Below, one piece after another: positions 1 to 48,701 of a stretch of 48,701 bases of DNA. Under the pieces are notes generated by a model. The model saw only the letters and a program-made list of their open reading frames with translations, made no database searches and had not been told where the DNA came from. This DNA comes from a virus (taxonomy: Duplodnaviria; Caudoviricetes): the IMG/VR virus record IMGVR_UViG_3300015082_000002, positions 1-48,701 of that record, one strand, 5' to 3'. Numbering within the stretch: position 1 is the first letter of the stretch; each line of letters starts with the position of its first letter. A program made the position numbers and the translations under genes.

Positions 1-126
1 CCTGGAGAGGTTGGCCTTGGAGAGGTTGGCCCTGGAGAGGATGGCCTCCACGACCGCAGCTCGCACCGACGCCGCATCCTTGGCGACGTACAGCACCTTG
101 CCGTTGACTGACTTGATCTCGATCAT
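1..126 (-). CDS. Pentapeptide-repeat protein, 5' part (continues across the contig end into 48266-48701)
   Basis: ATG at 126 overlaps the upstream TGA (ATGA) after GAGGA. Reads MIEIKSVNGKVLYVAKDAASVRAAVVEAILSRANLSKANLSR and runs off the window in A(N/I)LSx repeats. Confidence 0.85.
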   Translation of the reverse strand, partial: MIEIKSVNGKVLYVAKDAASVRAAVVEAILSRANLSKANLSR

Positions 127-638
127 GCGGACAGTTCCTCTCGGATCAGGGCTCGGGCCGCGTTGGCTCGAGCGAGGACGGTGGGATGCGTCAGGCCCAG
201 GAGGGCGGCGGCTTCACGCAGCGCGGCTCCGCGCAGCTCGGTGAGGATGAAGGAGGCACGCTCGGGCTCGGCCAGGGCGCGGACGGCCCGGTCGAAGTCC
301 TGACCGAACGTGGCCATCTCGGGGGTGAGCGGTCGGCCCAGAGCCAGCTCGTCCAGGTCATGCGCGAGGCCCGAGGGCTCCTCGCTGAACCCAGCCTGGC
401 TGCGCCGGTCTGACTTGCGCCAGTGGTCAGCGAGCAGCGAGATGATGATACCCCGCGACTCATCGAACAGGCGGGCGCGGGGGTTGTCGGTGATGCCGTC
501 GCGGATCTGGTTGAGCAGCTTCTCGAACGCGGCCGAGGTGATCTCCTCGGCTAGCTCATGGCTCCCGGTGAGCCAGAGGACGCGGTCGTGAACCTCCTCG
601 GAATGGGCGCGGAAGATCGCGCCGGCAGAGTCGGCCAG
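123..638 (-). CDS. ECF-type sigma-70 factor (sigma2 + sigma4), probable CTG start
   Basis: Frame of ORF 123..317 stays open to a CTG at 638 behind TAGGAGGG. The extension has region-2-like HDRVLWLTGSHELAEEITSAAF; the C-terminus has region-4 HTH LAEPERASFILTELRGAALREAAALLGLTHPTVLARANAAR. Confidence 0.8.
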   Translation of the reverse strand: MADSAGAIFRAHSEEVHDRVLWLTGSHELAEEITSAAFEKLLNQIRDGITDNPRARLFDESRGIIISLLADHWRKSDRRSQAGFSEEPSGLAHDLDELALGRPLTPEMATFGQDFDRAVRALAEPERASFILTELRGAALREAAALLGLTHPTVLARANAARALIREELSA

Positions 639-797
639 TTTTCCCTCCTACTACAAACACCGCGTGGATGCCTGTTTTGGTAGACGCTGTACAGAATCCG
701 TGCAGCCGGGGGCGGCGAAGTCAGGTAAGAGCATCCCCCCCGGCTCGGTTCAGGTGGTCTTGCCGCCCCCGCCGTCAGGCGGACGGGGCGTGCTGCG

Positions 798-842
798 CTC
801 TAGTCCAAGTAGGGGTCAGGAGGACAAGTCCTCCTGCCCAGT
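798..842. repeat. Palindromic element GGGGTCAGGAGGAC-AA-GTCCTCCTGCCC, related to 8150-8189
   Basis: Direct reading. Its flank CTCTAGTCCAA (798-808) recurs inverted at 8179-8189. Confidence 0.7.
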
Positions 843-938
843 CGTTCAATGGGGACTGGAGACGCTAGGGAACCATGATTAGGAACTAGTCCCTATTAGT
901 AACTCTGCTCTTGTGCATGTAGGAGATTCTCGAGGGGC

Positions 939-1193
939 TCATCCCTCGTCCTTCCCGGCCAGCAGATCGACCGAATCCTGAACCTGCCTGATCCACCGCC
1001 GGACAAGCCGACCCCACACGCTCGGGCGGTCGCGGTAGGTCACGAAGGCCACGGCCAAGTTTGCCACGGCCTCGGCCAAGTTGTTGACGTCCTTGCGCTG
1101 TCCTTCGACGTCACGGACGAGGGCACAGAGCAGCCCCGTCATACTCATCGCGCCGTTGGCGTGGTCTGTTAGCGCCGTGCGACTCTCGGTCAT
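939..1193 (-). CDS. Hypothetical protein
   Basis: ORF coupled to the upstream gene, with SD GAGAGGA. Confidence 0.55.
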   Translation of the reverse strand: MTESRTALTDHANGAMSMTGLLCALVRDVEGQRKDVNNLAEAVANLAVAFVTYRDRPSVWGRLVRRWIRQVQDSVDLLAGKDEG

Positions 1194-1582
1194 AGGTTCC
1201 TCTCAGCCTCGGCAACGAGGCGGTCAAAGTCAGGGGTTCGCTTGAAGCGCCTGTCCGCGATGTACGAGGTCAGGCGGGTGTAGAGGTCTGTCCAGTCGAG
1301 GTCGATCAGGGCGTGTTCGAGAGCCCACCGCCATGCCCACGCCTCGCGGTCGAGGCGCAGTCCCTTGAAGCCGGCGGGGTCGGCATGGTGGCCCAGCTCG
1401 TGCAGAGCGATCTGGTACGGGATCACCGTGTCCGGGATCTGGCTGACCGTGATGTAGCGGGCGCCGTCAACCTCGACGGCCTCGCCTCCCACGGTCTTGC
1501 AGTTCAGGCAAGTCCACACGGGCACGTCGAGATCCCTACCTAGACGCTGCACATGCTCAAGCAGCTCTTGTCCGGTCGTCAT
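1190..1582 (-). CDS. HExxH metallopeptidase (ImmA/IrrE-like)
   Basis: IALHELGHH followed by REAWAW (E-x-x-A). Confidence 0.65.
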   Translation of the reverse strand: MTTGQELLEHVQRLGRDLDVPVWTCLNCKTVGGEAVEVDGARYITVSQIPDTVIPYQIALHELGHHADPAGFKGLRLDREAWAWRWALEHALIDLDWTDLYTRLTSYIADRRFKRTPDFDRLVAEAERNL

Positions 1583-2016
1583 GGCGTATGCCGCTGGGCG
1601 TTGTGGTGCTTGGCGTGCTCAGACTGGCCCGAGAACAGGCGCAGGTTCTCTAGACGGTTGTCCTGCTTGTCGCCGTTGACGTGATGCACGACTTCCTCGT
1701 CCGCGAGGTCGCGGCCAAGGTGCTCGGCCATGACGAGTCGGTGCTCGTACACGTACATGCCTCGGCGTCGACCGCTGGTGCCGGACGCCATACCCACGCG
1801 GGGGTGGTCTTGGGTGACGGTGATGCGTATGTACCCCCCGGACTCGCTACGCCCTCCGCGCCAGCACGGGTGGTCTTTCCCCGAGAGGGCGTCCGCGCCC
1901 CGGCGAGAGTGCCCACGTATGAACCTCAGCGGAAGTCCGCGGACACACCCTTGGTGGCTGTCAGTGCGCCAAGCGATCTTGGTCTCCTGACCGCATCCGC
2001 ACTCACAGGCCGCCAA
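1579..2016 (-). CDS. HNH homing endonuclease
   Basis: CECGCG N-terminus, HPCWRGG, YEHRLVMAEHLGR, VVHHVNGDKQDNRLENL. Confidence 0.9.
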   Translation of the reverse strand: MAACECGCGQETKIAWRTDSHQGCVRGLPLRFIRGHSRRGADALSGKDHPCWRGGRSESGGYIRITVTQDHPRVGMASGTSGRRRGMYVYEHRLVMAEHLGRDLADEEVVHHVNGDKQDNRLENLRLFSGQSEHAKHHNAQRHTP

Positions 2017-2197
2017 CGTCCCTCCTTGAATCCGTGTCGGCGGCCAGGCGGTCGCGTGCGGACTTGAGTATCGGCGCGATGATCTCCCAGAGCGCGGGGG
2101 ACACGGCCGTCCCGAGCTTGCCCCCGGCGCGCAGAAGCGCGTCCAGCTCGGTCTGAGTGAGCCACACTTGCGCGAGGTTGGTGGGTCTGCTGCTCAC
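2003..2197 (-). CDS. Hypothetical protein
   Basis: Short ORF coupled by a GTGA overlap. Confidence 0.55.
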   Translation of the reverse strand: MSSRPTNLAQVWLTQTELDALLRAGGKLGTAVSPALWEIIAPILKSARDRLAADTDSRRDVGGL

Positions 2198-2421
2198 GAC
2201 GCCACGCTCCGCTTCAGCGCCTTGAAGAACTCGACGCCGTACTTCAGCTCGAGCGTCCCCGCGGCCAGGTCGCCGCGATGGGGCAGCTTCGGGAGCAGCG
2301 AGCGCCCCTTCTCGTCGCGGGCCGAGTCCTTGCCGACGAGGCCCGAGGTCAGGATCCGCGGGTCGCTGCTCGTGCCCGTGAAGCGCATCTGGCTGCGGCG
2401 GTTGGAAGCGTTCTGAGTCAT
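2194..2421 (-). CDS. Hypothetical early protein
   Basis: Start reassigned to ATG 2421, behind CCCCGCCAG and GAGAGGA. Confidence 0.65.
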   Translation of the reverse strand: MTQNASNRRSQMRFTGTSSDPRILTSGLVGKDSARDEKGRSLLPKLPHRGDLAAGTLELKYGVEFFKALKRSVAS

Positions 2422-2600
2422 GTATTTCCTCTCATCTGGCGGGGTAAACGGCATGGATACAGCGTTGTCCAGCCTGGCAAATAGCCGCCGCAGTGCGGCG
2501 TGTACCCTCTAGAAATACGCCCTAGAGTGTGCTACGTTTCGGCTGTTGTTCATGCGGCTATACGGGCCTTGACGAAGCCCCCATCACAAGGAGCGAGATC

Positions 2601-2801
2601 ATGGCTGTAGAGACAGTGAGACGGAGCGACGTGTCGGGGAAGGAGATCCCCGAGGGCACGGGCGCTCGAGTGCGCGTGATGTTCTACGACGGCGTGCGCG
2701 TCGACCGGCGTGCAGACCTGACCGATGCCGAGGTCAAGCAGTTGCTCGACTTCACGAAGGACGTGCAGCCTCGGCCGGATCGGCGGGGCCCGACGCGCTA
2801 G
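2601..2801 (+). CDS. Lsr2-like protein (dimerisation domain only)
   Basis: SD AAGGAG. MAVETVRRSDVSG...VRVMFYDGVRVDRRADLTDAEVKQLL resembles the Lsr2 N-domain pattern. Confidence 0.55.
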   Translation: MAVETVRRSDVSGKEIPEGTGARVRVMFYDGVRVDRRADLTDAEVKQLLDFTKDVQPRPDRRGPTR

Positions 2802-3018
2802 TTCAGTTCCCCGCTCAGCGTGCGGACGGACGCTTCGAGTATCTGACGTGCCATCAGAGCACTGATCGGCGGCTCGGCCGATTACGTGGCGCTTGGCCTC
2901 GTGGACGTCGGCGGCGGGCAGCTCGACGCGGCGGTACTTGCGGACGGGGGCGGGCATGGTCACTCCTTCTGGCGGGGTTGCGTTGCGGGGCATCCCTCGT
3001 TCGGTGTACCCCGTTTGG

Positions 3019-3032
3019 GGAACGTATGTTCG
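3019..3032. promoter_or_regulatory. Putative LexA/SOS box
   Basis: GGAAC-GTAT-GTTCG matches the Gram-positive GAAC-N4-GTTC consensus; it is intergenic. Confidence 0.5.
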
Positions 3033-3044
3033 TATCCGAGGTAC

Positions 3045-3097
3045 AAGAAAAAGAGCCCCCGGCCTCAGCGCACAAGTAGCGCAGAGCCAGGGGTGCT
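3045..3097 (-). terminator. Intrinsic terminator
   Basis: Imperfect GC hairpin followed by CTTTTTCTT on the minus strand. Confidence 0.65.
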
Positions 3098-3306
3098 GAA
3101 GGCGCACGCAGGCGCGGGCCAACGGCCCGACGTGAACTGCGTACTTCTCGGGCCGAGCCGGTGGGCTCAGGGTCTCCCGACTTCAGACACGCGCACGGCC
3201 TTGACCACCGCCTAACGGCGTGAGCCGGCCACTCCCCGTCCTTGATAACGGGCCTGGCGACATGCTGGATTTCATGCCTCATCAGCCGAGGGTCTGGGGC
3301 TGCTGG

Positions 3307-3576
3307 TCAGTCGTCCTTGTTGACGACGAACGTGGACACGGAGCCGTCAGGCTCCGAGATGACGCGGTAAAGCAGTACGGTCGGGCCGAACAGGGACTCA
3401 CGCGAGACGGTGAACTCGGCGCGATCCTTCTTCGGCACCTTCTGCGCGAGGGTTTGGGCGCGGGTGACGCCGAGCGCCGCTAGGGGCTCCTCGTGTAGGA
3501 GCCCCGCGGGCCCGGAGACTCGGAACACATCCGTTCCGAGCGTGGGCATTCCTTTTGGTGCCTTGGGCCTAGCCAC
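3307..3576 (-). CDS. Hypothetical protein
   Basis: ORF overlapping the upstream stop. Confidence 0.6.
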   Translation of the reverse strand: MARPKAPKGMPTLGTDVFRVSGPAGLLHEEPLAALGVTRAQTLAQKVPKKDRAEFTVSRESLFGPTVLLYRVISEPDGSVSTFVVNKDD

Positions 3577-4102
3577 GAGCGGCCTTTACCAGTGCCGGGC
3601 CGTTGACGATGAGGGCGCGCGTGCGCGCTCCCTTCGGCAGGAACACGAACCGCCCACTCGGCGGGTAGTGACGCGCCCGGACGAGCACCGGCTCGCTGTA
3701 CGACGGAACTGTCTGCCCGCAGTAGAGGGTGCCGATGCAGAGCAGGTACCTACCGCCCTCGGTGATTGTGTCCTGGTCGAGCGGCTCGAAGCCTTGCTCA
3801 ACCAGTCCGGCCAGGGTGGCCGCGGCAACGTCGTCGCGCAGCTCGCCCTTGGCGAGGTAGACCTCGTTCCCTAGCTGCTTGAGCAGCCGGTCGCGCTCGG
3901 AGCCATGCCGCTCGTGCGGAGGCAGGTCGCCCGCCTTCTCGTTCACGAACCGCTCGGCGTCGTCGTCGTAGAATCCGCCGCTGGCCCGGAACTCGGCCAC
4001 GAGCTGCTTGATCTCCGGGTGTGTCCCGCGCGGCTCTCGGCGCAACCACTCCCCCTCCGGGAGCGCCGCCTTGGCCTCTAGGTATGTGCGAATCTCGCTC
4101 AT
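3569..4102 (-). CDS. Hypothetical early protein
   Basis: Box + GAAAGG SD + ATG; phage-like codon use. Confidence 0.75.
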   Translation of the reverse strand: MSEIRTYLEAKAALPEGEWLRREPRGTHPEIKQLVAEFRASGGFYDDDAERFVNEKAGDLPPHERHGSERDRLLKQLGNEVYLAKGELRDDVAAATLAGLVEQGFEPLDQDTITEGGRYLLCIGTLYCGQTVPSYSEPVLVRARHYPPSGRFVFLPKGARTRALIVNGPALVKAARG

Positions 4103-4371
4103 GGTCGTCGTGCCTACCTTTCACTGGCGGGGATTTGACAGGCGGAACTGCCTCGGCCCGACCGCAGATCAGGCCGAGGCAGCACCGCCCGCCAGGGTCG
4201 GTGCCTCGTTCGCGCTCGAGGGTGGCCCTAGCCATTGCTCCCGGCTGTACGGGCTCTTAGGGGATCGACTACCCCCGTGCGCGGTCTAGTGGCGCCGCTG
4301 TAGGAGCTGGGCGCCGTGGTCGATGTACGTGGGATGCCTGCGAGGGTGAAGCCAGGCACGAAGCGCGGCGA

Positions 4372-4662
4372 TCATGCCGCACCGTGCTCGGGGCAATCCT
4401 CGAGCCCGCACTTCGGGCACGCGGACTCGCCGCATCCCTCGCACACGCCGTCAGGGCCGACACGCGGCCCGTCGGGATCGCACCCCGCGTACCAGTGCCG
4501 CCCCGGAATCGGCGCGTCGTATGCCGCGGGCCGATGTACTGGCCAGAACTCCCGCGCCCACGGCTGCCCCACGCACCCGCACTCATCGATGGGGCACTCG
4601 CAGTAACCCTCGTCCGGGCCGAGGAAGTGGAGGTGCCCGCACTCAGCGCAGGTGCTGGTCAT
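4372..4662 (-). CDS. Small Cys-rich (Zn-binding) protein
   Basis: Start ATG 4662 behind AGAGGA; several CxxC motifs (CAEC, CEGC, CPKC). Confidence 0.65.
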   Translation of the reverse strand: MTSTCAECGHLHFLGPDEGYCECPIDECGCVGQPWAREFWPVHRPAAYDAPIPGRHWYAGCDPDGPRVGPDGVCEGCGESACPKCGLEDCPEHGAA

Positions 4663-4823
4663 GTCGAGTCCTCTACGAAGCGCGCAACCCCGCCGGCGTA
4701 GCAATCCGCAATCGCGCGGATCACTTCCCGATTCGACATGTAGTCCACGGTTTCGCCCTGGAAGTCGCACCACTGGGCCTTGAGGTACAGGCGCATTGCG
4801 CCGAGGATGGCGACGGCAGACAT
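4659..4823 (-). CDS. Small hypothetical protein (54 aa, absent from ORF track)
   Basis: MSAVAILGAMRLYLKAQW...; GGAGG SD; coupled at both ends. Confidence 0.6.
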   Translation of the reverse strand: MSAVAILGAMRLYLKAQWCDFQGETVDYMSNREVIRAIADCYAGGVARFVEDST

Positions 4824-4966
4824 CAGAAGGGCACCTCCATTTCAGCCGCGCTAGGTGCCGCGGGGGTGAAGTTCCAGAAGTCATCCTGCGAAGGGTCGGG
4901 AGCGTTTGTCAGCTCGCGCCATTCTTGGAGCGCCTCGAGGCGCTCGTACAGCTCGTCGGAGATCAT
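4823..4966 (-). CDS. Small acidic protein
   Basis: ATGA-coupled; MISDELYERL...EMEVPF. Confidence 0.6.
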   Translation of the reverse strand: MISDELYERLEALQEWRELTNAPDPSQDDFWNFTPAAPSAAEMEVPF

Positions 4967-5406
4967 GCGGACACCCATGCCTCGAACTCGTTGCACGCGA
5001 TGGATGCGATCAGCTGATAGGGCACGTCGTCCGCGATGGCCCGCGCGTACTTCGCGAACTTGCGCCACTTCGCGAGCATCACGGCGTCCCAGTCCTCGAC
5101 GTCCTCGAGCCCGTGAACTACGGCCCAGCCGCCCGAGCGTCCGGCGCGCTCGACCGTGACGCCTGCGCCGAAGATGTCGGCCGCGTCCTGCTGAACCTGC
5201 TCGAACTCGTCTTCACAGATGAGCCAGAACAGCCCATCCATGTACTCGTCCGAGACGTGGCGCTCGATCCACTCGTGCGTGAGATGCACGTTGAACTCGG
5301 CGGTATCCGGTAGCTTGACGTCGTGGACGTTCTTGTAGACCTTGACGTTGACGGCCGGACGGCCGCTGTACTGCTCGACGTCATCCTTTGTGCGGATGGC
5401 GGACAT
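4963..5406 (-). CDS. Hypothetical early protein
   Basis: Box + GAAAGGA + ATG; acidic 147-aa protein. Confidence 0.75.
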   Translation of the reverse strand: MSAIRTKDDVEQYSGRPAVNVKVYKNVHDVKLPDTAEFNVHLTHEWIERHVSDEYMDGLFWLICEDEFEQVQQDAADIFGAGVTVERAGRSGGWAVVHGLEDVEDWDAVMLAKWRKFAKYARAIADDVPYQLIASIACNEFEAWVSA

Positions 5407-5482
5407 GGCTTGTACGTCCTTTCCTGGCGGGGTTACTAGACGTTCAAGTCGAGCCCCGCCGTACAGGGCTCGATTTCAGCGT

Positions 5483-6058
5483 CTAGGGCTTGAGTCGAAT
5501 GGGCATTAGGAGCGCTCGCGGCGCGTCGTCCCCGTAGCCGGTGATCGGAGAGACGAGGATCGGCCCTAGCGGTGCGGGCTCTAGTGTGCCGCCCACGGCC
5601 GTGAAGCGGATACGGACGCCATCGCTGCCCATCGCCTTGGCCAGCTTGGCCAGCCGGACAGCGTCTAGTCCGATCTCGAACGTGGCCACGTTGTCCGGGA
5701 ACATTTGCTCCAGGTTCGGGAACGTGTACTCGCTCGACTCACGCGGAACCGTGAGATAGGGCGCGAGGTAGTCTCCGTCGGACGGTATTCCCTGCACAAC
5801 CTGCGCGTCCCCGTTCACGAGGATTGCCGTAGCGAAGCGCTTGTCCGGCGGCTTGCGTGACGCCTTCAGCGTATCGACCGGAATCGGGCCGGGTGTGTCC
5901 CCGTCGTCCAGGTCGACCGGGAACCGGGCGGCCATGTAGGAGTCCGTAACCCATACTTCGGACGCATCGACATTGAGATGCACCTTGCTCAGTACCGGCC
6001 TGCTCGCATCCCGAGATGCGATTAGCTCCGGCTGCATCTTGCTCGACTTGAAGCGCAT
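5483..6058 (-). CDS. DNA polymerase III beta-clamp-like protein (shortened)
   Basis: Start ATG 6058. ASRDASRPVLSKV, VTDSY, FPNLEQMFP, IGLDAVRL and the LLMPIR C-terminus are DnaN-like. Confidence 0.7.
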   Translation of the reverse strand: MRFKSSKMQPELIASRDASRPVLSKVHLNVDASEVWVTDSYMAARFPVDLDDGDTPGPIPVDTLKASRKPPDKRFATAILVNGDAQVVQGIPSDGDYLAPYLTVPRESSEYTFPNLEQMFPDNVATFEIGLDAVRLAKLAKAMGSDGVRIRFTAVGGTLEPAPLGPILVSPITGYGDDAPRALLMPIRLKP

Positions 6059-6090
6059 GACGTATTTCCTTTCAACTGGCGGGTAGTGGT

Positions 6091-6198
6091 TCAGGGATTG
6101 AGCGAGTGCGCCACGGTGAGTAGCGCGTAGATTTCCGGCCCTAGCACGATGATCGCGGCAAGGGCAATGCCGGTCAGGAATGCGGCCGTGAGGGTCAC
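6091..6198 (-). CDS. Small membrane protein (35 aa)
   Basis: Box + GGAG + GTG; hydrophobic TAAFLTGIALAAIIVLG. Confidence 0.6.
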   Translation of the reverse strand: MTLTAAFLTGIALAAIIVLGPEIYALLTVAHSLNP

Positions 6199-6248
6199 GG
6201 GATGGGCTCCAATCTGGCGGGGATTTGGCGCCGCAATGCGGCGGATGG

Positions 6249-6509
6249 TTAGGCGAGAGTCTGGAACGTCGGGCCTTCGCCCGTGCGGCCGTCCTTTTCG
6301 CGGACGATTGCGACCAGCTCGCGCCGACCGCCACCGCTCGACCCGTGCGTCATGTAGATGCGGAACTCGTCGCCGTCGTCGCCTACCGTGGCCTCGACCT
6401 CGACGCCGGCATTCCAGCCGCGCAAGTGGGCATCCTGGCCGCGAGCTGAGCCCGAAGCCGTGACGGAGTTTCCGCGGCTGTTCACCGTGGAGCAGTAGAA
6501 CCGTGACAT
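6249..6509 (-). CDS. Hypothetical early protein
   Basis: Box + GAGAGGA + ATG. Confidence 0.75.
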   Translation of the reverse strand: MSRFYCSTVNSRGNSVTASGSARGQDAHLRGWNAGVEVEATVGDDGDEFRIYMTHGSSGGGRRELVAIVREKDGRTGEGPTFQTLA

Positions 6510-6586
6510 GGGTGTTCCTCTCTCTGGCGGGATGGAGCGCGTAGGCGTTCCTATGCGGGCTCGTTGCCAAGCCCGCCTAGCAGCGT

Positions 6587-6925
6587 CTAGAGCACTGCGC
6601 TTGCAGAGCGCACTACCTCGTCCTCAACGCCAGAGCTGAACCCATCCTCGAATGCGCTGAGAATATCGTCAGCGGCGTCGTCGTCCTCGTCTACGTCGAG
6701 CGAGGAGAGAACGTCCCTCGGGAGCAGGCAGTCGGCCCATTCCCCGGATAGTGGCGAGGAGGGGAGCGCGTCGAGCACGGCTGGATCTCCGTCCTCAATG
6801 CCCGCGAGAATGTATCGCGCAGTGTCCTCGGAGGTATTACCGTCGATGACCCACGATCCGGCAGCCTTCCCGTGCTCGTATCCGGCCACGCGGGCAGCCT
6901 CGATAATGGCGTCGTAATCGCGCAA
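6587..6925 (-). CDS. Acidic hypothetical early protein
   Basis: Box + GAAAGGA + TTG. Confidence 0.75.
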   Translation of the reverse strand: MRDYDAIIEAARVAGYEHGKAAGSWVIDGNTSEDTARYILAGIEDGDPAVLDALPSSPLSGEWADCLLPRDVLSSLDVDEDDDAADDILSAFEDGFSSGVEDEVVRSASAVL

Positions 6926-6965
6926 TGGGTGTTCCTTTCCTGGCGGGTTATCTATCGGCCGATGG

Positions 6966-7151
6966 TTAGGCGAGAGCCTTGCGAATCTCGGACATGGACA
7001 CGCGCACTGCCGCGCCCTTCGTGCGCCATACCTGCCCCGTGCGAGTGTCGCAACGGGCGACTACACACGCCGAGCCCTGCGGCAAATCGGCGTCGTACAC
7101 GTCCAGAATGAACGGCGTGTACTTGTTGCGCGGCTTCGTGCGTAGGGTCAT
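6966..7151 (-). CDS. Hypothetical protein, first gene of the early transcript
   Basis: Box + GAGAGGA + ATG. Confidence 0.7.
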   Translation of the reverse strand: MTLRTKPRNKYTPFILDVYDADLPQGSACVVARCDTRTGQVWRTKGAAVRVSMSEIRKALA

Positions 7152-7389
7152 TGTCGGATCCTCTCTGGCGGGTTATCTCTCGGCCGCGCCTCACGCGGTC
7201 GAGCCATAGTCCGCTTCGATCTATCGGACGCCCGTAGCAGGCTCGTGGGCCTTGGGCTCACGTTGGGGCGTTGCACCCGTTCCGACTGGCGACCTAACCC
7301 TCTAGTCCGATAGAGGCCTGCGTTAGACGCTTCTCTCCGAGTAGTGCCGCTTCACTCTGCGGGTGCTCCGGCTTTCCGTATCTAGGCCC

Positions 7390-7417
7390 AATATAGCCGC
7401 TGTACAGCTAGAGTCAA
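7390..7417 (-). promoter_or_regulatory. Leftward early sigma70-type promoter with an operator-like palindrome in the spacer
   Basis: TTGACT-16 nt-TATATT. Spacer holds GCTGTACAGC (7399-7408), with a second copy at 7445-7454. Confidence 0.75.
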
Positions 7418-7472
7418 TACGTAGTTTCTACTTGTTGTGCAGCCGCTGTACAGCTCGTGGCCCAGGCTCTCC

Positions 7473-7509
7473 GTGCGCGCGTAGTGCGCGCGTAGTGCGC
7501 GCGTAGTGC
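7473..7509. repeat. 11-bp tandem repeat GTGCGCGCGTA x3
   Basis: Direct reading. Confidence 0.9.
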
Positions 7510-8149
7510 CTGGCCGGGCAAGGGTGCCCAGCCGCGCCGATCACTGGGACGGCTGGGCACTGGGCACGGGGGACGACATCGGGGAGTGTTGGCATGCCAG
7601 GCAACGCACCTCGTCACTGTGCCCAAAGCCCTCGCTGTACCCTAAGATAGGTGTCAGGCTAGGCAACGTACACTCATGCCCTGCCCACTAGTTGCCTGCC
7701 CTGCCAACACTGCCCACGTTGCCCAGCCTGCCAACGCCGTGGGGCCTCCCTAGTTGTCCGCTGAGGCAACGGCCGGCCCCCTTGGGCCCGTGTGCGCACA
7801 GGGGGAAGGCCACCCATCACATGACTGCGCCTAAAGGCCCTGTGCAGGGCTTTCCTGCCCCGACTGTTGCCTGTTCTGGCTACATACGGGGCCGTGTTAT
7901 ACACCCGCCATGGCCCCCGAGGGGAACCCCGGCTCCAAGAGGTTCCCGATCTGGCACCGAGGGGGCCAGGGTCGACCCGGAAGGCGCGATGAGCGCCGCC
8001 ATTGGCGACGGTGGGGGCCGATTTCGGGTCGATTGGGGGGCGCCAAAGGGGCCACCGAAGGGGGCTTCGATGGCCAGCCGGCCTGGGGCTATCGGTGCCC
8101 CCCTCGAGATGCGCCGGCGGGGGCCGATTCGGCGGTTTGGAACCCTAGG

Positions 8150-8189
8150 GGGGTCAGGGGACAAGTCCCCTGCCCCAGTTGGACTAGAG
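8150..8189. repeat. Palindromic element GGGGTCAGGGGAC-AA-GTCCCCTGCCCC, related to 798-842
   Basis: Direct reading. Confidence 0.7.
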
Positions 8190-8360
8190 AATGGGCCCCT
8201 ACGGGGCCCTTAATAGGGAAAAACCGCGTACGCACGCGAGGGAGGGGCCGATTTGGCTCAGACAAGCCCTTCTTCCGCCCCGGCCGCCAGGCCGAGAGGG
8301 CGGGTTGCCAAGTTTCTCACCCCCAGCGGAATAAAAAGTGCCCCCCAGCGCGGTTTACTT

Positions 8361-8770
8361 AGTGCAGGACTCCTTTCGGCGGACGGTGGGGTGTCCTGCA
8401 ACTCATTCAGAACTGCGCTCAGCCCATAGACGGCATCGAGCGCGACAAGTCGGTGCTGCCGGGTCTCGGTGGCGCCGGTCAAGGCTGCAAAGGGAGTGTC
8501 AGATCCGGCTTCGGCCGCGCAGTGCCATCAATCCTTCTCCGGGGTCGCTAGGAGCTACGGGTGAACGACTGTCGGCAGCCTTCGGGCTGCTGGCGGGCGG
8601 GATCTCGCCGGCTCTGGCTTCGGTTGGGGTGCGGGAAGTGGGGCGCGGTTCATCCGGTTAGGCATGTTCGGTGTTCAGCGAGGCTCGGGCCGCAAGCTCG
8701 AGCAGGCGCGGATGCCGTGAACTGGCGGGTCTTAATGGCCGGCGACGTCGAAGTATGGCAGCACCGAACT
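8361..8770 (+). ncRNA. Large structured non-coding RNA candidate
   Basis: 11-bp closing helix 8450-8460/8757-8767; three cUUCGg hairpins and a GCAA-containing hairpin inside; G-U pairs favour the + strand; no credible ORF. Confidence 0.75.
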
Positions 8771-8776
8771 ACCCTC

Positions 8777-8848
8777 TGCGGGGTCGTCTAGCCGGTAGGA
8801 CAGTGGCCTCTGACGCCTCCAACGTAGGTTCGATCCCTACCCCCGCAG
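8777..8848 (+). tRNA. tRNA-Gln (CTG anticodon)
   Basis: Acceptor TGCGGGG/CCCCGCA, D-arm GTC/GAC, anticodon loop CTCTGAC, T-arm GTAGG-TTCGATC-CCTAC. One U-U mismatch in the anticodon stem; CCA not encoded. Confidence 0.9.
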
Positions 8849-8852
8849 CCCT

Positions 8853-8898
8853 TGGCGACCCTCGACCTGCCCCCCGGCGTCGGGGGTCGCCCATTTTT
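8853..8898 (+). terminator. Intrinsic terminator after the tRNA
   Basis: GGCGACCCTCGAC...GTCGGGGGTCGCC followed by ATTTTT. Confidence 0.75.
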
Positions 8899-8930
8899 CA
8901 TTGTCATCGCACGAACGAGAGGAGGCCGGT

Positions 8931-9308
8931 ATGCCCGGCTCGTACACTTCCGGCTCCGTCGCCACCACCGCGGTACTCGCCCAGGATCTCACTGTCTCCG
9001 AGGAGGAGTGGCTCACCGTGATCGCCGTCGCTGGCCCGACCGCCACGGCCGCGGGCGACATCTCCGTCGCAGTGCTCCCCTACCTGTCCGACCGCCCCGG
9101 AGCCTCGGGCCAGAACGCCCCGCTCGCTCCGGCCACGCTGCCCCTCGCAGTCACCACGCAGGAGCCCGGCACCGCCGCCGTCCTCGCCGCTGGCAAGGCG
9201 TACGTTCTCGCGCGCTACGCGGTCACCGGCCTGGACAAGGTTCAGGTGCAGGCCAAGAACAACAACGTCGGCACCCTGCCCGTCGAGATCAACGCCTTCT
9301 ACGGCTAG
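8931..9308 (+). CDS. Putative virion protein
   Basis: GGAGG + ATG 8931; beta-rich Ala/Val/Thr composition. Confidence 0.7.
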   Translation: MPGSYTSGSVATTAVLAQDLTVSEEEWLTVIAVAGPTATAAGDISVAVLPYLSDRPGASGQNAPLAPATLPLAVTTQEPGTAAVLAAGKAYVLARYAVTGLDKVQVQAKNNNVGTLPVEINAFYG

Positions 9309-9458
9309 ATGAACGTCCGAGTCCAGGGAGGCACCAACGCCGGCTGGCGTCGGGTGCTCAACCGCTCCAAGGCGAGCTACACATGCGAGAACTGCGGAGC
9401 GCGCAACCGCTACTACTGGGTGCGCTGCCCCGTCTGTTCACACCCGCGGCCCGAGTAG
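9309..9458 (+). CDS. Small zinc-ribbon protein (49 aa)
   Basis: YTCENCGARNRYYWVRCPVC. Confidence 0.65.
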   Translation: MNVRVQGGTNAGWRRVLNRSKASYTCENCGARNRYYWVRCPVCSHPRPE

Positions 9459-9589
9459 TGCGCTGGCAGCACGACGACCCTAACGCCCCCTGGCACACGC
9501 AGCCGGGGTGGCAGATTGGCGTGGCCACGCGACACCCGCGCCTCTGGGCTATCCGTCACGCACTGACTCGACTTCGCAGGAGGTAGCGC

Positions 9590-24200: not shown

Positions 24201-24236
24201 GCCCCACCACTTACACCCCGCCAGGAAGGAGGCCCC

Positions 24237-33088: not shown

Positions 33089-33106
33089 ATCCAGCCAGGA
33101 GGAGAG

Positions 33107-33946
33107 ATGTCCGTCGTATTCGACCAGTACGAGGAGCGGTTGCATCGGCTGAACAGGCACGCCAGCACGATCATCGCCTACCGCTCATCCACCCGCCCGC
33201 TCGTGTCCTACCTGTCGGCGCACCGGCTCGACGCCGAGCAGGTCGACTCGGAGACGCTAGAGGAGTACTTCGCCCAGCTCGAGCGCGCACCCAGCACCAA
33301 GCAGCTCCACCTCATGCACATCGGCGCCGCGTACCGCTACGCGCACCGCCGGGGCCTGCTCACCCGCGACCCGACCATCGACGTCCAGCTCGAGCGCGTG
33401 CCCGACAAGGAGCCCGTCACGATCCCGGCCCGCGCGCTGCGGGATATGAAGGCCCGCCTGTCGGGGGATCGGGAGTGGCTGCTCTGGCATCTGCTCGCGT
33501 ACACCGGGATGCGCCGGCATGAGATCCTCGGGCTCAAGTGGGTCGACGGGGTGAAGTTCGAGGACGGGACGATCACGGTGCTCGGGAAGGGCGGCAAGCT
33601 GCGCCACATCCCGATCCACCCCGCGCTCGGGGAGGCGCTCCACGACGCGGGCCCGCGGGAGGGCGAGTGGGTGCTGCGCGGGCAGCGGCGCTACGGGGAG
33701 CCGCGCGCCACAGCGCAGGGCACCTTCCACCGCGTGCTCGACGCGATCACCGAGTCGAAGTACACGGCGCACGACTTCCGGCGCACGGTGGCCAGCTCGC
33801 TCTATGCGAACGGGGTCGACGGCGACACCATCGACAAGATCCTCGGCTGGAGCCCGCGCGTGGTGCGCACCCGCTACTACGTGAGCGTGGCGCCGGCTCA
33901 GTTACAGCGGGCGATCCTCAAGCTCTACGCGGACGGGCCGATCTAG
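33107..33946 (+). CDS. int: Tyrosine recombinase/integrase
   Basis: TGMR, GKGGK, HDFRR, LGWS, RYY: complete catalytic set. 279 aa, no arm-binding domain. Confidence 0.93.
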   Translation: MSVVFDQYEERLHRLNRHASTIIAYRSSTRPLVSYLSAHRLDAEQVDSETLEEYFAQLERAPSTKQLHLMHIGAAYRYAHRRGLLTRDPTIDVQLERVPDKEPVTIPARALRDMKARLSGDREWLLWHLLAYTGMRRHEILGLKWVDGVKFEDGTITVLGKGGKLRHIPIHPALGEALHDAGPREGEWVLRGQRRYGEPRATAQGTFHRVLDAITESKYTAHDFRRTVASSLYANGVDGDTIDKILGWSPRVVRTRYYVSVAPAQLQRAILKLYADGPI

Positions 33947-34078: not shown

Positions 34079-34113
34079 ATCTGTCCACCCCGCCAGGAGT
34101 GGAGGCAGGTAGT

Positions 34114-40462: not shown

Positions 40463-41027
40463 CGGGGCTCGCGTCGTTGGGGGGCCCGAGCTTGACGATC
40501 TGCCCGGACTGGGCGAGGCCGAACTCGGGAACGTGGGCCCCCGACTTGGTGAAGTCCTCCTTGGTGAAGAACACGGGCGTCGGCGGGACGGTGTGCTCCG
40601 TGTGGTAGCGGATCTGCTTGCAGAGCATGCAGTTCTCGTCGTAGTCGAGTCCGCGTAGGGCCTTCGACGTCTTGGGCTTCTCGGCCGCCATCTTCTCCTC
40701 GACGTACTCCACGAGGTTGACGTTGAAGAACAGCGCGGCGGCGTGATCTTCGTCACGCTCGCCGTTGAGCCACGACTCGAAGTGCCTGGCCGCCGACTCG
40801 CGGGCACGCAGTAGCTCCTCGGGCCCGTCCGCCTGCGTCCAGTTGGCGACACCGGGGGCGATGGGCGGGTACTTGGCCTCGGCCTTGGTCAGGTGCGCCG
40901 CCCAGCGGCGCTTCATCGGGCCGGGGAGGATCAGCAGGAAGTTGATCTTGCCCTCGGCCGTGTCCCTGACCATGCCGGAGTCGAACTCCCGGCGTGCGCC
41001 GGAGTCCTTCACGGTGAACTCGGACAG
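40455..41027 (-). CDS. dATP/dGTP diphosphohydrolase-domain (DUF5664-like) protein, probable CTG start
   Basis: FDSGMVRD..GKINF, KY...NW, SAARHF..WLNGERDEDHAAALFFN. Confidence 0.75.
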   Translation of the reverse strand: MSEFTVKDSGARREFDSGMVRDTAEGKINFLLILPGPMKRRWAAHLTKAEAKYPPIAPGVANWTQADGPEELLRARESAARHFESWLNGERDEDHAAALFFNVNLVEYVEEKMAAEKPKTSKALRGLDYDENCMLCKQIRYHTEHTVPPTPVFFTKEDFTKSGAHVPEFGLAQSGQIVKLGPPNDASPDG

Positions 41028-41833
41028 AAGCTCTCCTTCCATTCGTCGTAGTCGACCTTGTCGGCCCACGACGTCGTGGACACCTCATGGTCGACGGAGA
41101 TGGGGATGACCGCCGTGATCGCCGGGAAGTCCGACATCAGGGCTGGGACATGCTCGTGCAGGATCGGCAGCTCCGACTCGGGGCCGTCGAACACGATCTC
41201 GTCGTGGATCACCAGCACCATCCGGGACTCGATGTCCGCGGACTGCACCCAGGCGTCCACCTTCAACAGGGCCTGCTTCATCAGGTCAGCGGCGCTGCCC
41301 TGGATCAGCTTGTTGAGGAGCTTGAACTCGCCCCACTGCTCGGCGTGAAGGTGCCGACCCCACGGGGTCTTCAGGTGCCCCCGCTGCGCGTAGATGCGCT
41401 CGATGGCGCCGGGCTCGTAGTTCGGGTGCGCCCCACCGCGCGGCGTCGGGTTCGACATCAGGCGGATCTGGGGGAGCCCCTCGTGGAAGTCCGCGTAGAA
41501 CTTCTTGGCCTCCCCGAGCGGAATCTCCAGTTCCTCGCTGACCTTCTTCGGGCCGGCGCCGTACAGGCTCATCAGGAACCAGACCTTGCCGTGCTGACGC
41601 TCGGACTCGGTGATCGCCTCGGCGGGCTTCTTGAGCGCGCGGGCCGCGATCTCTACGTAGACGTCCCGGCCCTCCCGGTACCAGTCCGCGATGCTCGTGT
41701 CTCCGAGCTTGGCGGTGAAGTAGCCGAACAGGCGGGGCTCGATCTGGCTGTAGTCGAAGTAGCTGAACGCGCCCCGCTTGGGCAGGATCACCCGCTTGAC
41801 CGACTTGTCGTCCCTAGGGATGTTCTGGAAAGT
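41009..41833 (-). CDS. polA: DNA polymerase A, C-terminal part (motifs A, B, C); start unclear
   Basis: FQNIP, DYSQIEPR, RQHGKVWFLMSLYG, LNKLIQGSAAD, IHDE. Confidence 0.92.
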   Translation of the reverse strand, partial: TFQNIPRDDKSVKRVILPKRGAFSYFDYSQIEPRLFGYFTAKLGDTSIADWYREGRDVYVEIAARALKKPAEAITESERQHGKVWFLMSLYGAGPKKVSEELEIPLGEAKKFYADFHEGLPQIRLMSNPTPRGGAHPNYEPGAIERIYAQRGHLKTPWGRHLHAEQWGEFKLLNKLIQGSAADLMKQALLKVDAWVQSADIESRMVLVIHDEIVFDGPESELPILHEHVPALMSDFPAITAVIPISVDHEVSTTSWADKVDYDEWKESFCPSSP

Positions 41834-42229
41834 TCATGCCGCGCTCGACCTCCGACGAGCGCCTGTATCCCATCCGTTGGTGCCGCGCCGACTAGCTCCA
41901 GCGGCAACGGCCTCGAGGTACTTCTTGACCTTCTTGGACTCGTCGGTCAGGTACGGACGAAGCCGCTCCATGACGTCATGGGCTGCGGGCCCAGAGATGT
42001 CCACGGCATACCGGCGCCGCTCGCCCTTCAGGAGGTGCGGGCCGTTGACCTTCCCTGCGCCGACGGCGCGTACGAACCTATCGAGCGGGTACCTATCGCA
42101 GACTTGCGCCACGTTGAGGCGCAGTCGCGGGGTCACCGTCCCGCTGGATCCGGGGGGCGTGACGTACACGCTGCCCTCCCCGTCGAAGAAGCCAGCCGCC
42201 CAGGCCAGCTCCGTGTCGAGGTGGGTCAG
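41834..42229 (-). CDS. LAGLIDADG homing endonuclease (single motif), probable CTG start
   Basis: LAWAAGFFDGEGSV, LNVAQ, RLRPYL; CTGA overlap with the upstream stop. Confidence 0.85.
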   Translation of the reverse strand: MTHLDTELAWAAGFFDGEGSVYVTPPGSSGTVTPRLRLNVAQVCDRYPLDRFVRAVGAGKVNGPHLLKGERRRYAVDISGPAAHDVMERLRPYLTDESKKVKKYLEAVAAGASRRGTNGWDTGARRRSSAA

Positions 42230-43062
42230 GGTGTCCGGCTGGGCGAGGGATCCTGCTTGGAGAATCCACTGTCGGAGGGATGGCCGGTGCGGAAGTTGAG
42301 CACCTGATGCCAGCCCAGGGCGTCGAAGTACTGGGCGTACCCGCCGGGGCGGATCCACAGCGGCTGCTGCGCGAGGCCCAGGAAGTCGTACGGGCCGCCG
42401 ACGCCGTCGTTGAACCAGGCGGGCGTCACGAAGTCGCTGATGGCGACCGGCTTGCCATTGGCGCCGGGCAGGGTGTAGAAGTCGGCCTCCACCGGATCGC
42501 ACACTTCCTGGAACCAGCCGTAGGCGTTCTGCGGGACGGCCTTGAGTGCGAGCTGCGCGTTCTCGAGCCAGTAGAACTGCGACGGGTAGCCCTGGTTGAC
42601 CGCTGAGGTCACCGGGTCGGCCGCCAGCTCGAACAGCTCGTGCGTGAAGGACACCGAGTTGTCGTAGCCGTAGTAGGCGCCCGTGCCCGCGTAGACCGTG
42701 ATGCTCGGCTTGTTGCCGCGCTCGATCCAGTGGTAGGCGAGGGCTCCCTTGACCGGGCCGCTCGTGCGGAACTCGGCGCTGATGACCCCCGGCGGTGCCT
42801 TGTGGCTGCCGATGAAGACCAGCTTGTACTGCGTGGAGTACCAGTACTTGGCGAAGTCCACGTTAACACTGTGCTCCCACGCGGGGATGTCGTTCTTGAT
42901 CTCGGAGTCGCTGATGAAGGTCGCGGCGAAGTTGGAGATGTAGATGGTCTCGGTGGCCTTGGCCGGGGCGGGGTGGCTCGCAACGAGGCCGCCCACACAC
43001 AGCGCAAGCACGAGCACGGCGTAGATCCCGACCAGGGCGGCGAGCCCTCGGTATTGGCGCAT
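42226..43062 (-). CDS. Secreted or membrane-anchored protein, possible zinc peptidase
   Basis: Signal peptide; LAYH, THELFELAADP, EVCDPVE. Confidence 0.7.
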   Translation of the reverse strand: MRQYRGLAALVGIYAVLVLALCVGGLVASHPAPAKATETIYISNFAATFISDSEIKNDIPAWEHSVNVDFAKYWYSTQYKLVFIGSHKAPPGVISAEFRTSGPVKGALAYHWIERGNKPSITVYAGTGAYYGYDNSVSFTHELFELAADPVTSAVNQGYPSQFYWLENAQLALKAVPQNAYGWFQEVCDPVEADFYTLPGANGKPVAISDFVTPAWFNDGVGGPYDFLGLAQQPLWIRPGGYAQYFDALGWHQVLNFRTGHPSDSGFSKQDPSPSRTP

Positions 43063-43085
43063 AGGTCTCCTAGGTAGGGGGCGGG

Positions 43086-43655
43086 TTACTCGCCCGGCAG
43101 GATGATCTTCGGCGGGTCGAGGAACTCCTCGGCGCCGTCCTCGGTCTTGACGATCATCGACGCGGGGATCCCGGCCAGGATGACCTGACCCTCGGCACCG
43201 ATCACGTCGAACGTGGGCTCGTTCTGGAGCTTGGCGAGTAGCTCCGCGTTCACGGCCTCGGCCTCGAGGCGCTCGGCCTCGATCTGCGCGACGGCAGCGT
43301 TGTACGCCTCGTTGAACTCGCGGCGGTTGGAGCGGCGGGCGATCTGCGTGGCCTTGCGCCGCGCCTGCCGCACCTTGCGCCCATTCGTCACGCTCTCGTT
43401 GGACGACCGTGGCTGCGCGGGGCCTTTGGCCTGGCGGACGATCTTCTTGACGGTGCGGGCCAGCTCACCCTTGGGCGCGAAGGCGCTCGGGGTCTGGGCC
43501 ACGTTCGCGAAGAAGACCGCGAGGCGCTGGTAGTTGGTCTGCTCGTCGTCGCTCAGGACGTAGTTCTCGTCCTCGATGACCGCCTTGAGTGCGACGGTGA
43601 CGATGAGTGCCTGGTCGTCGGTGAGCAGCGTCTGGACGAACTGGATAGGCTTCAC
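43086..43655 (-). CDS. Hypothetical protein
   Basis: GTGA-coupled start; 3' part of ORF 43086..43898. Confidence 0.7.
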   Translation of the reverse strand: MKPIQFVQTLLTDDQALIVTVALKAVIEDENYVLSDDEQTNYQRLAVFFANVAQTPSAFAPKGELARTVKKIVRQAKGPAQPRSSNESVTNGRKVRQARRKATQIARRSNRREFNEAYNAAVAQIEAERLEAEAVNAELLAKLQNEPTFDVIGAEGQVILAGIPASMIVKTEDGAEEFLDPPKIILPGE

Positions 43656-43990
43656 TCCTTTTCTAGATAGGCAGCCGCGGCGCGGAGCAGCGCGGGGTCG
43701 TCTCGCAACTTCCCCATGCCGGCGTTGCAGGCATGGCAGAGCAGGCCGCGCACCTTGCCGGTGGCGTGGCAGTGGTCTACGGCGAGGCGGTGCGTGGGAC
43801 TCACTCCCTCGCAGATGGCGCAGACGAAGCCCTGCTCCACGAGCATCAAGTAGTACTCGTAGAGGGTGATCCCGTACCTCGTGAGGAGGTGCGAGCAACG
43901 GGTGTGGTGGTTGTGCCTGGCGCGGTTGGCGGCTATCCAGCCCTTCTTGTACTCACGAGCCCGCGTCTTGCTGGCCTCACTCCGAGGCAC
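43652..43990 (-). CDS. Endonuclease VII-family homing endonuclease
   Basis: RYGIT, QGFVCAIC, LAVDHCHATGKVRGLLCHACN. Confidence 0.92.
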   Translation of the reverse strand: MPRSEASKTRAREYKKGWIAANRARHNHHTRCSHLLTRYGITLYEYYLMLVEQGFVCAICEGVSPTHRLAVDHCHATGKVRGLLCHACNAGMGKLRDDPALLRAAAAYLEKE

Positions 43991-48269: not shown

Positions 48270-48701
48270 ACCAGGCCCAGATCGGCCAGGTTCTTCTCGG
48301 CCACGATCTTGCAGCGGTGGACGCGGAACTTGCCGTCAGTGCCCGACGGGATTGATGCGATGTCCTCCGCGGCGAACTCCGCTACGAGGATGCGGTATCC
48401 CGGCTGCCACTCCCGCAGGATCCAGTCCATCGTGGCGAGGTTGATCCCCGCGCCACACGCGGCTGAGGTGGTGTCGGCGTCGGCCACGGAGTACTCGTAG
48501 CCCACGGCGTAGGGCTCGCTCGTGTAGTACGGGCCAGTGCCATCTGCCTTGACGAGCTTGTAGGCGCGTATCGGGCCGGGCTGGTCTAGCAGCACCATCA
48601 GGGGCGTAACGCGCCACGCCTCCACCCCGTCGGCCTCGTAGAGGTCGGCCCCGGAGAGGATGGCCCCGGAGAGGTTGGCTCCGGAGAGGTTGGCTCCGGA
48701 G
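48266..48701 (-). CDS. Pentapeptide-repeat protein, 3' part
   Basis: LSGANLSGANLSGAILSGADLY then AYKLV...CGAGIN...DGKFRVHRC; frame open to the window end. Confidence 0.85.
   Translation of the reverse strand, partial: SGANLSGANLSGAILSGADLYEADGVEAWRVTPLMVLLDQPGPIRAYKLVKADGTGPYYTSEPYAVGYEYSVADADTTSAACGAGINLATMDWILREWQPGYRILVAEFAAEDIASIPSGTDGKFRVHRCKIVAEKNLADLGLV

What the first reader, a model, noticed from the sequence alone, without database searches (positions are those of the whole stretch)
2436..7172. CCCGCCAG box abutting the RBS of nine early genes: candidate translational regulon
Seen: the octamer occurs nine times in 4.7 kb, always sense to the mRNA and 0-3 nt 5' of the SD (e.g. TAACCCGCCAGGAAAGGAACACCCATTG). 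It also precedes tail gene 24237, and a variant CCAGCCAG precedes the recombinase. Known analogue: start-associated sequences of cluster K mycobacteriophages, which have a different sequence. Inference: an RNA element (protein or sRNA site, or a C-GCCA-G mini-hairpin partly masking the SD) that co-regulates translation of host-takeover genes.
Basis: partly seen in the sequence, partly recalled or inferred. Interest (0 to 1): 0.85.

Follow-up and report, generated by a model that had tools for sequence, protein, structure and literature searches.

The report
Phage start box with partner hairpin
A family of uncultured soil phages keeps the same eight-letter box (CCCGCCAG) just in front of the ribosome-binding site of its separately started, likely early genes, and always together with a small hairpin sequence elsewhere in the genome whose invariant tip is partly complementary to the box, so a hairpin RNA is predicted, but not shown, to switch these genes as a group.

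Summary
CCCGCCAG occurs nine times on the minus strand in 2436-7172 (0.27 expected), each time just 5' of a Shine-Dalgarno. It marks 9 of 9 independently started genes and 0 of 9 translationally coupled ones in a hand-made list. Related soil phages (terminase 52-67% identical) with largely unrelated genes there keep it unchanged.

New here: a ~40-nt hairpin at 8362-8400, behind the divergent promoter-like site, with a covarying stem and invariant head UCGGCGGACGG (16 phages, no Rfam match). Box and hairpin go together: 8 of 9 informative loci have both (the ninth has a variant box), and three near-complete relatives have neither. The head can pair with the box, but only modestly better than shuffles (13 of 300), and no compensatory change was found.

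Best reading (0.4): a phage-encoded RNA that reads a multi-gene translational regulon. A protein reader is nearly as likely. It is SAS-like but not a cluster K SAS. The scan earlier noted a different CCA-type box on other DNA (e1-6382545), not this one.

The parts
7165..7172 (-). box 1, before ORF 7151-6966 (61 aa)
6940..6947 (-). box 2, before ORF 6925-6587 (112 aa)
   Evidence: homologue in boxed relative L146
6524..6531 (-). box 3, before ORF 6509-6249 (86 aa, phrog_5927)
   Evidence: its homologue in G006 is also boxed
6214..6221 (-). box 4, before ORF 6198-6091 (35 aa)
6076..6083 (-). box 5, before ORF 6058-5483 (191 aa, weak polymerase processivity factor hit)
   Evidence: phrog_947, E 6e-7
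5424..5431 (-). box 6, before ORF 5406-4963 (147 aa), just 3' of a 21-bp inverted repeat
4124..4131 (-). box 7, before ORF 4102-3569 (177 aa), just 3' of a 26-bp inverted repeat (4136-4194)
2969..2976 (-). box 8, before ATG 2957 (ORF length doubtful)
2436..2443 (-). box 9, before ORF 2421-2194 (75 aa)
7390..7417 (-). sigma-70-like promoter match (TTGACT-16-TATATT) heading the boxed arm
   Evidence: 1 found, 1.1 expected in shuffles, so a consensus match only
8333..8361 (+). weakly conserved promoter-like stretch in front of the hairpin
   Evidence: alignment of 14 phages; inferred
8362..8400 (+). conserved hairpin: covarying stem, invariant head 8376-8386, loop GCGGA 8379-8383; candidate partner RNA
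8401..8775 (+). structured non-coding stretch with two perfect anti-box copies (8590-8597, 8722-8729), not conserved in relatives
8776..8851 (+). tRNA-Gln(CTG)
33091..33098 (+). one-mismatch box CCAGCCAG before tyrosine integrase 33107-33946
   Evidence: different degenerate versions in G002, G007, G008, G009
24217..24224 (+). exact box before structural-arm ORF 24237; not conserved
2601..2801 (+).

Best explanation
CCCGCCAG is a conserved box placed directly 5' of the Shine-Dalgarno of the separately started genes on the likely early arm, and its most likely reader is a predicted ~40-nt phage hairpin RNA (8362-8400) that would be made from the divergent promoter-like site. Shown: the box, its position, its conservation, the covarying stem of the hairpin and their co-occurrence. 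Inferred: the hairpin is transcribed and released as a small RNA, for example by RNase P cutting at the tRNA that follows it in many relatives. Inferred: its GGCGG pairs with box CCGCC, the weak U-G top of the stem opens, and the U tract extends onto the purine run that leads into the SD (9-12 bp with one bulge or mismatch). Inferred: this covers the SD and turns down translation of about ten genes at once when the structural arm comes on. Direction and timing are not shown.
For: Box marks 9 of 9 genes with a gap of 32 nt or more (counting the first gene, which has no upstream neighbour) and 0 of 9 with a gap of 19 nt or less, on my hand-made gene list. It is exact in relatives whose genes in this arm are mostly unrelated. 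The base 5' of it is never G (0 of 48 RBS sites, against 7 of 29 other copies) and positions +1 to +6 are almost all purines, as expected of single-stranded RNA. Hairpin: 16 phages, 10 of 13 pairs changed on both sides, 0 of 500 shuffles as high; the plus strand folds better in 16 of 16. Of 9 loci with 1.6 kb or more upstream of the hairpin, 8 have an exact box+SD and one a variant. Records G001, G003 and G005 (92-100% complete) have neither element. G001 keeps the promoter-like site, stem and U tract but has another head and sits among boxed clades in the terminase tree. Head-to-box duplex averages -22.8 kcal/mol over 41 sites; 13 of 300 loop shuffles and 2 of 300 random 11-mers do as well. 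In this window the 5' arm reads anti-SD then anti-box, in the right order.
Against: The perfect match is only 5 bp. Box C1 and A7 face A and C of the head, yet both are near-invariant, which plain antisense pairing does not explain. After paying to open the hairpin, net binding is weak (-0.1 to -4.5 kcal/mol) and shows no preference for boxed starts in 2 of 6 phages (G008, G009). No compensatory box/loop change was found. L122 has an unchanged head but CCCACCAA, which breaks the GGCGG pairing (one site). Co-occurrence can reflect shared ancestry, with only two or three independent losses. An unrelated gut phage has 4-5 similar sites and no such hairpin (not significant after correction). L129 has a CCCGCCAA+SD on the hairpin's own strand. 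The energy test was designed after the match was seen.
Confidence: 0.4

Rival explanations
1. The box is the site of a sequence-specific RNA-binding protein (phage or host) that represses, activates or cuts these mRNAs. The hairpin is then a separate cis element, for instance a boxB-like antitermination signal with a GNRNA pentaloop for the structural operon.
For: All eight positions are conserved, including those that do not pair with the head. Flanks are G-poor and somewhat more open than shuffled controls. Three boxes lie within 80 nt in one G007 leader. Degenerate integrase sites look like tuned affinity. The invariant 3-bp stem with a GCGGA loop directly behind a promoter-like site fits a protein-bound hairpin (the GNRNA rule for boxB is recalled; one search did not confirm it). 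Similar boxes occur in an unrelated phage.
Against: No convincing reader gene. The best co-occurring protein (2601-2801) looks weakly like an Lsr2 dimerisation domain (4 of 80 members, best E 0.003; Z 4.0, rmsd 5.9, 51 aligned) and also occurs in an unboxed phage. It does not explain why G001 lost exactly the complementary head.
Confidence: 0.33
2. The box is a translation enhancer read by the host ribosome or another host RNA, as an extension of the SD.
For: It marks only de novo starts and is invariant across divergent phages, as expected for a fixed host partner.
Against: The box-to-SD spacer varies, so there is no continuous helix. In 301 sampled Actinomycetota genomes box+SD never exceeded 7 copies and ran near the reversed-pattern control (the host phylum is inferred). 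It is missing from structural and replication genes, and from close relatives G001 and G003.
Confidence: 0.1
3. The box is a DNA site: a stoperator-like operator, a Chi-like protective site, or a crossover point for shuffling gene cassettes (PeSL- or integron-like, with the phage integrase).
For: Asymmetric, single orientation, hypervariable gene region. The complement CTGGCGGG resembles Chi GCTGGTGG (recalled). The integrase is present in 5 of 5 boxed records. A 24-nt repeat ends two unrelated boxed-region genes.
Against: Position is fixed to the SD, not to promoters or gene ends. No shared flanking repeat or upstream motif. G004 has the integrase and no box. No joint at a box in three same-study assemblies (weak, contigs only).
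Confidence: 0.13
4. A cis mini-hairpin C-GCCA-G partly masks the SD.
For: C3 and G8 can close a GCCA loop on paper.
Against: Mean pairing probability 0.09, above 0.3 in 6 of 48 sites. The second pair needs G at +1, present in 14 of 49.
Confidence: 0.03

Closest known systems
Start-Associated Sequences (SAS/ESAS) of cluster K mycobacteriophages (PMC3203893, passages and first part of section 15 read) and cluster EF Microbacterium phages (PMC7302621, passages)
   Same: Short asymmetric repeat, about 10 copies, one orientation, at translation starts of non-structural genes that follow longer intergenic gaps; conserved across unrelated genes; reader unknown.
   Different: SAS contains the SD itself (13 bp with an AGGAG or AAAGGA core); this 8-mer lies 5' of a variable SD. 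No 17-bp inverted-repeat ESAS was seen. Here a candidate partner RNA co-occurs.
C4 antisense RNA of phages P1/P7 (PMC5320573, passages; PMC12197685, passages)
   Same: Short phage RNA, released by RNase P, whose loops pair with mRNA upstream of and over the ribosome-binding site.
   Different: C4 has three stem-loops and a variable specificity loop, and acts in the immunity system. This is one hairpin with an invariant head and about ten putative targets; no Rfam C4 match.
Trans-acting phage sRNAs PreS/LPR1 and VpdS (10.1101/2024.10.31.621285, passages)
   Same: Seed-type pairing to a motif shared by many targets.
   Different: PreS is Hfq-dependent and mainly targets host mRNAs, and VpdS is described as regulating host and phage mRNAs; here the targets would be the phage's own genes, each carrying an identical site.
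PeSL cassettes of T4-type phages (PMC2839356, abstract and outline)
   Same: Repeated regulatory module in a hypervariable early region.
   Different: PeSLs are promoter plus terminator stem-loop units that recombine; no promoter or common stem-loop accompanies this box.
Lambdoid boxB / rrn leader hairpins (recalled; search listing only)
   Same: Hairpin with a G-N-R-N-A loop just behind a promoter-like site, ahead of a long operon.
   Different: No conserved boxA after it and no N-like protein identified.

Membership tests
Cluster K/EF SAS | Asymmetric repeat in one orientation immediately upstream of start codons | tested here: met
Cluster K/EF SAS | Mainly before non-structural genes with longer intergenic gaps | tested here: met
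   9 of 9 versus 0 of 9 in a hand-made gene list; similar but noisy in three relatives
Cluster K/EF SAS | 13-bp consensus that itself contains the SD core | tested here: not met
   8-mer lies 5' of a variable SD; definition
Cluster K/EF SAS | Associated ESAS inverted repeats or upstream motif | tested here: not met
   no conserved position from -40 to -5 and no strongly enriched hexamer in 80 nt upstream
C4 antisense RNA | Three-stem structure matching the Rfam model | tested here: not met
   no hit at gathering threshold or at E up to 5
C4 antisense RNA | Loop pairs with target upstream of and over the RBS | tested here: inconclusive
   13 of 300 shuffles as good; weak net energy
C4 antisense RNA | Released from a longer transcript by RNase P | not testable with these tools
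   a tRNA or tRNA-like gene follows the hairpin in many relatives; no RNA data
PeSL cassette | Promoter plus terminator stem-loop in each unit | tested here: not met
   one promoter match in 1-9500 and none at the boxes; no shared upstream motif
boxB/nut antitermination site | GNRA-like pentaloop hairpin with boxA and an N-like protein | tested here: inconclusive
   loop fits the recalled pattern; the downstream sequence is not conserved; no N-like protein was sought
Lsr2 dimerisation domain (gene 2601-2801) | PF11774 match and fold | tested here: inconclusive
   4 of 80 members, best E 0.003; top VIA-align row Z 4.0, tied with unrelated rows; Foldseek E 0.82

The most novel reading that the evidence does not exclude
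The phage runs a seed-type RNA regulon on itself: one ~40-nt hairpin RNA, cut from the front of its tRNA/structural transcript, pairs with an identical 8-nt site stamped in front of every independently started early gene and switches them together. This would give SAS-type repeats their first identified reader.
Probability: 0.35. Interest if true: 0.85.

Novelty: new variant of a known kind. Interest (0 to 1): 0.62.

Why it matters
Start-associated repeats have been seen in actinophages since 2011 with no known reader (PMC3203893). Here the repeat is separable from the SD and comes with a specific, conserved candidate partner, so the RNA-versus-protein question becomes a simple compensatory-mutation experiment. 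If the pairing is real, it is a phage early-to-late switch carried by RNA, and newly acquired genes could join it by picking up eight bases. Even if it is not, the hairpin is a conserved phage RNA motif with no Rfam match.

Tried and rejected
1. Perfect anti-boxes at 8590 and 8722 as sRNA seeds: absent from the 500 nt behind the hairpin in all 15 relatives (one CTGGTGGT-type look-alike in L202); dropped as a family mechanism.
2. Mini-hairpin: rejected.
3. Hairpin on the minus strand: folds worse in 16 of 16.
4. Same DNA-binding protein for box and hairpin: the two octamers differ at three positions and did not mix among the sites seen.
5. Search for variant loops or variant boxes that would show covariation: none in de novo motif scans, in the covariance-model search of 82 sources, or in a loop-degenerate scan (57 stretches, 55 loci examined; the 4 family hits there all have GCGGA).
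6. Hairpin head pattern in 301 bacterial genomes: 1 match, not examined.
7. Expression: no RNA holder listed, which says nothing either way.
8. Single-sequence terminase locus searches found nothing; the alignment did.
9. Results for the small plus-strand gene are void: I gave a start one base off (2600 for 2601; likewise 8930 for 8931 and 2958 for 2957). Redone.
10. The first tree run did not finish; one search used 65 of 127 rows (all at 58% GC or more, plus a thinned remainder).
11. Literature: a search for the octamer gave 782 papers, none of the 20 listed on phage regulation; searches showed no report of this box or hairpin. The library lacks most subscription papers.
12. Atlas and PDB sequence searches for gene 2601 gave nothing usable.
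Full report
Setting. The window is a 48.7-kb, terminally repeated phage genome from soil. Its capsid protein is about 33% identical to those of Arthrobacter phages Adat and Jasmine. A rightward arm carries terminase, portal, capsid, tail and lysis genes and an integrase. A leftward arm starts near 7400 with small unknown genes and continues through the window end into replication genes. An actinobacterial host is inferred, not shown. 'Early' below means position at the head of the leftward arm; there are no expression data.

Observation. CCCGCCAG occurs 15 times (5.56 expected, 0 of 100 shuffles). Nine copies lie on the minus strand in 2436-7172, each before an SD-like run and a start. It is the top octamer of 31,370 for preceding SD+start+ORF (8 of 15 by a strict rule, background 2.9%, p 3e-9). 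In my hand-made list of 18 genes from 7151 to 939, the nine boxed ones are the first gene and the eight with gaps of 32-349 nt; the nine with gaps of 19 nt or less have no box. So the box marks starts that need fresh initiation.

Conservation. A 52-sequence terminase alignment fetched 163 loci. Exact box+SD sites occur on the same arm in G002 (6), G006 (8), G007 (6, plus 4 one-mismatch variants), G008 (3), G009 (9-10), L123 (2), L132 (1) and L146 (2), although most genes behind them are unrelated to the window's. Across 49 sites, positions -4 to -1 are G-poor, +1 to +6 are nearly all purine, and nothing further upstream is conserved (this set includes two probable false sites, G006 plus strand and L313). 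The -1 base is G in 0 of 48 RBS sites and in 7 of 29 other copies. The integrase carries a different degenerate box in the window, G002, G007, G008 and G009, and none in G006 or G004. The copy before gene 24237 is absent in six homologues. Among 202 viral loci picked by box+SD patterns, the eight with three or more exact sites are all from this family. In 301 sampled Actinomycetota genomes box+SD reached at most 7 copies, near the reversed-pattern control (five of the 301 are flagged unpublished and enter only this pooled tally).

A second element. Comparing the non-coding region with relatives revealed a hairpin at 8362-8400. It follows a weakly conserved promoter-like stretch, and in many relatives a tRNA or tRNA-like gene follows it. 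A covariance model found it in 16 phages, 15 of which built the model. The stem covaries: 10 of 13 pairs change on both sides in the free alignment and in the model-fitted one (94.6% paired, 0 of 500 shuffles; that alignment leans towards the structure). The head UCGGCGGACGG is invariant. The plus strand folds better in 16 of 16. Rfam has no match.

Co-occurrence. Of nine loci with at least 1.6 kb upstream of the hairpin, eight have an exact box and L122 has CCCACCAA before its first gene. G001, G003 and G005 (98, 100 and 92% complete) have neither element; G004 and G010 (60 and 55%) also show neither. G001 and L136 keep the promoter-like site, stem and U tract but carry another head, and G001's leftward genes show no substitute motif. 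On a 65-row terminase tree the hairpin appears in three separate clades, with the G001 lineage sister to the window's clade (support 0.90). That suggests loss of both elements, but from few independent events in mosaic genomes.

Mechanism. The head's GGCGG is complementary to box CCGCC, and the U tract 5' of it can pair with the purine run that leads into the SD. Over 41 sites in six phages the duplex averages -22.8 kcal/mol; 13 of 300 loop shuffles and 2 of 300 random 11-mers do as well. Net of opening the hairpin, binding is -4.5, -1.3, -1.2, -1.8, -1.7 and -0.1 kcal/mol, against -0.9, -0.3, -0.05, -1.0, -2.3 and -0.3 for unboxed starts, so two phages show no preference. I commit to the trans-acting RNA model at 0.4. 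Release by RNase P, pairing in vivo, repression and timing are all inferred. Against it: two near-invariant box positions do not pair, no compensatory change was found, L122's variant breaks the core, L129 has a variant box on the hairpin's own strand, and an unrelated 58%-GC gut phage has 4-5 similar sites with no such hairpin (selected by the pattern and not significant after correction).

Rivals. A protein reader with an independent boxB-like hairpin (0.33) explains full-length conservation better but lacks a candidate. The co-occurring 66-aa gene is weakly Lsr2-like and also sits in an unboxed phage. DNA-level readings (0.13), a host enhancer (0.1) and the mini-hairpin (0.03) fit worse.

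Comparison with known systems. It works like an SAS in placement but fails the SAS definition, since SAS contains the SD and often an ESAS (PMC3203893; PMC7302621). The proposed pairing resembles P1 C4 RNA (PMC5320573), but the RNA is not C4. Searches showed no report of this box or hairpin; supplements were not read and most subscription papers are not held. It resembles L122's variant and hints at a wider CCRCCAR class; I did not test it.

Verdict. A real, conserved and apparently undescribed SAS-like element, with a new candidate partner RNA; the mechanism is open but directly testable. Novelty: new variant of a known kind. Interest 0.62.

Noticed in passing
window 2601-2801 (+): 66-aa gene in the opposite direction inside the leftward arm; 81 hits, 55-79% identical apart from its own two records; weakly like an Lsr2 dimerisation domain without the DNA-binding half, a possible counter-silencer.
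   Followed up: partly
window 8401-8775: Structured non-coding stretch before tRNA-Gln; relatives also have several hundred bases of non-coding, GU-rich sequence behind the tRNA with shared short motifs. Possibly a further ncRNA.
   Followed up: partly
L135/G001, L136, L145/G010, G003, L222: Relatives without the box carry arrays of 16-26 tRNAs at the same place, whereas boxed records have 0-2 tRNAs.
   Followed up: no
G321 (L439 13100-17730), L369, L373, L399: Unrelated gut phage family with CCCGCCAG, CCCGCCAA or ACCGCCAG directly before the SD of 4-5 genes, with extra CCGCC upstream.
   Followed up: partly
L437, before starts at 12015, 14585 and 19745: A different repeated motif of about 17-19 nt just upstream of the SD of three genes in an unrelated phage.
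   Followed up: no
L425/G316: Three or four box+SD-like sites on both strands of an unrelated 69-kb contig, no hairpin; not significant genome-wide.
   Followed up: partly
window 4136-4194: 26-bp inverted repeat just upstream of box 7 whose 5' arm (minus strand) contains a perfect anti-box, allowing an alternative fold over the box.
   Followed up: no
window 6239-6262 and 6956-6979: 24-nt, 92% identical repeat at the ends of two unrelated genes, each upstream of a box.
   Followed up: no
window 41009-45092 (-): DNA polymerase A gene in two pieces separated by ORFs that include an HNH endonuclease; possibly introns.
   Followed up: no
window 1-47 and 48651-48701; 7473-7509: 15-nt coding tandem repeat across the circular junction, with a longer allele in run X3; an 11-nt triple repeat near the divergent promoters.
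   Followed up: no
window 8824-8895: Sub-threshold Rfam 6C hit (35 bits, gathering 47) on the terminator-like hairpin after the tRNA.
   Followed up: no
window 34089-34096 (+): Exact box followed by an SD-like run just after a hairpin, antisense to the end of the ClpP-like gene, with no plausible gene behind it.
   Followed up: no
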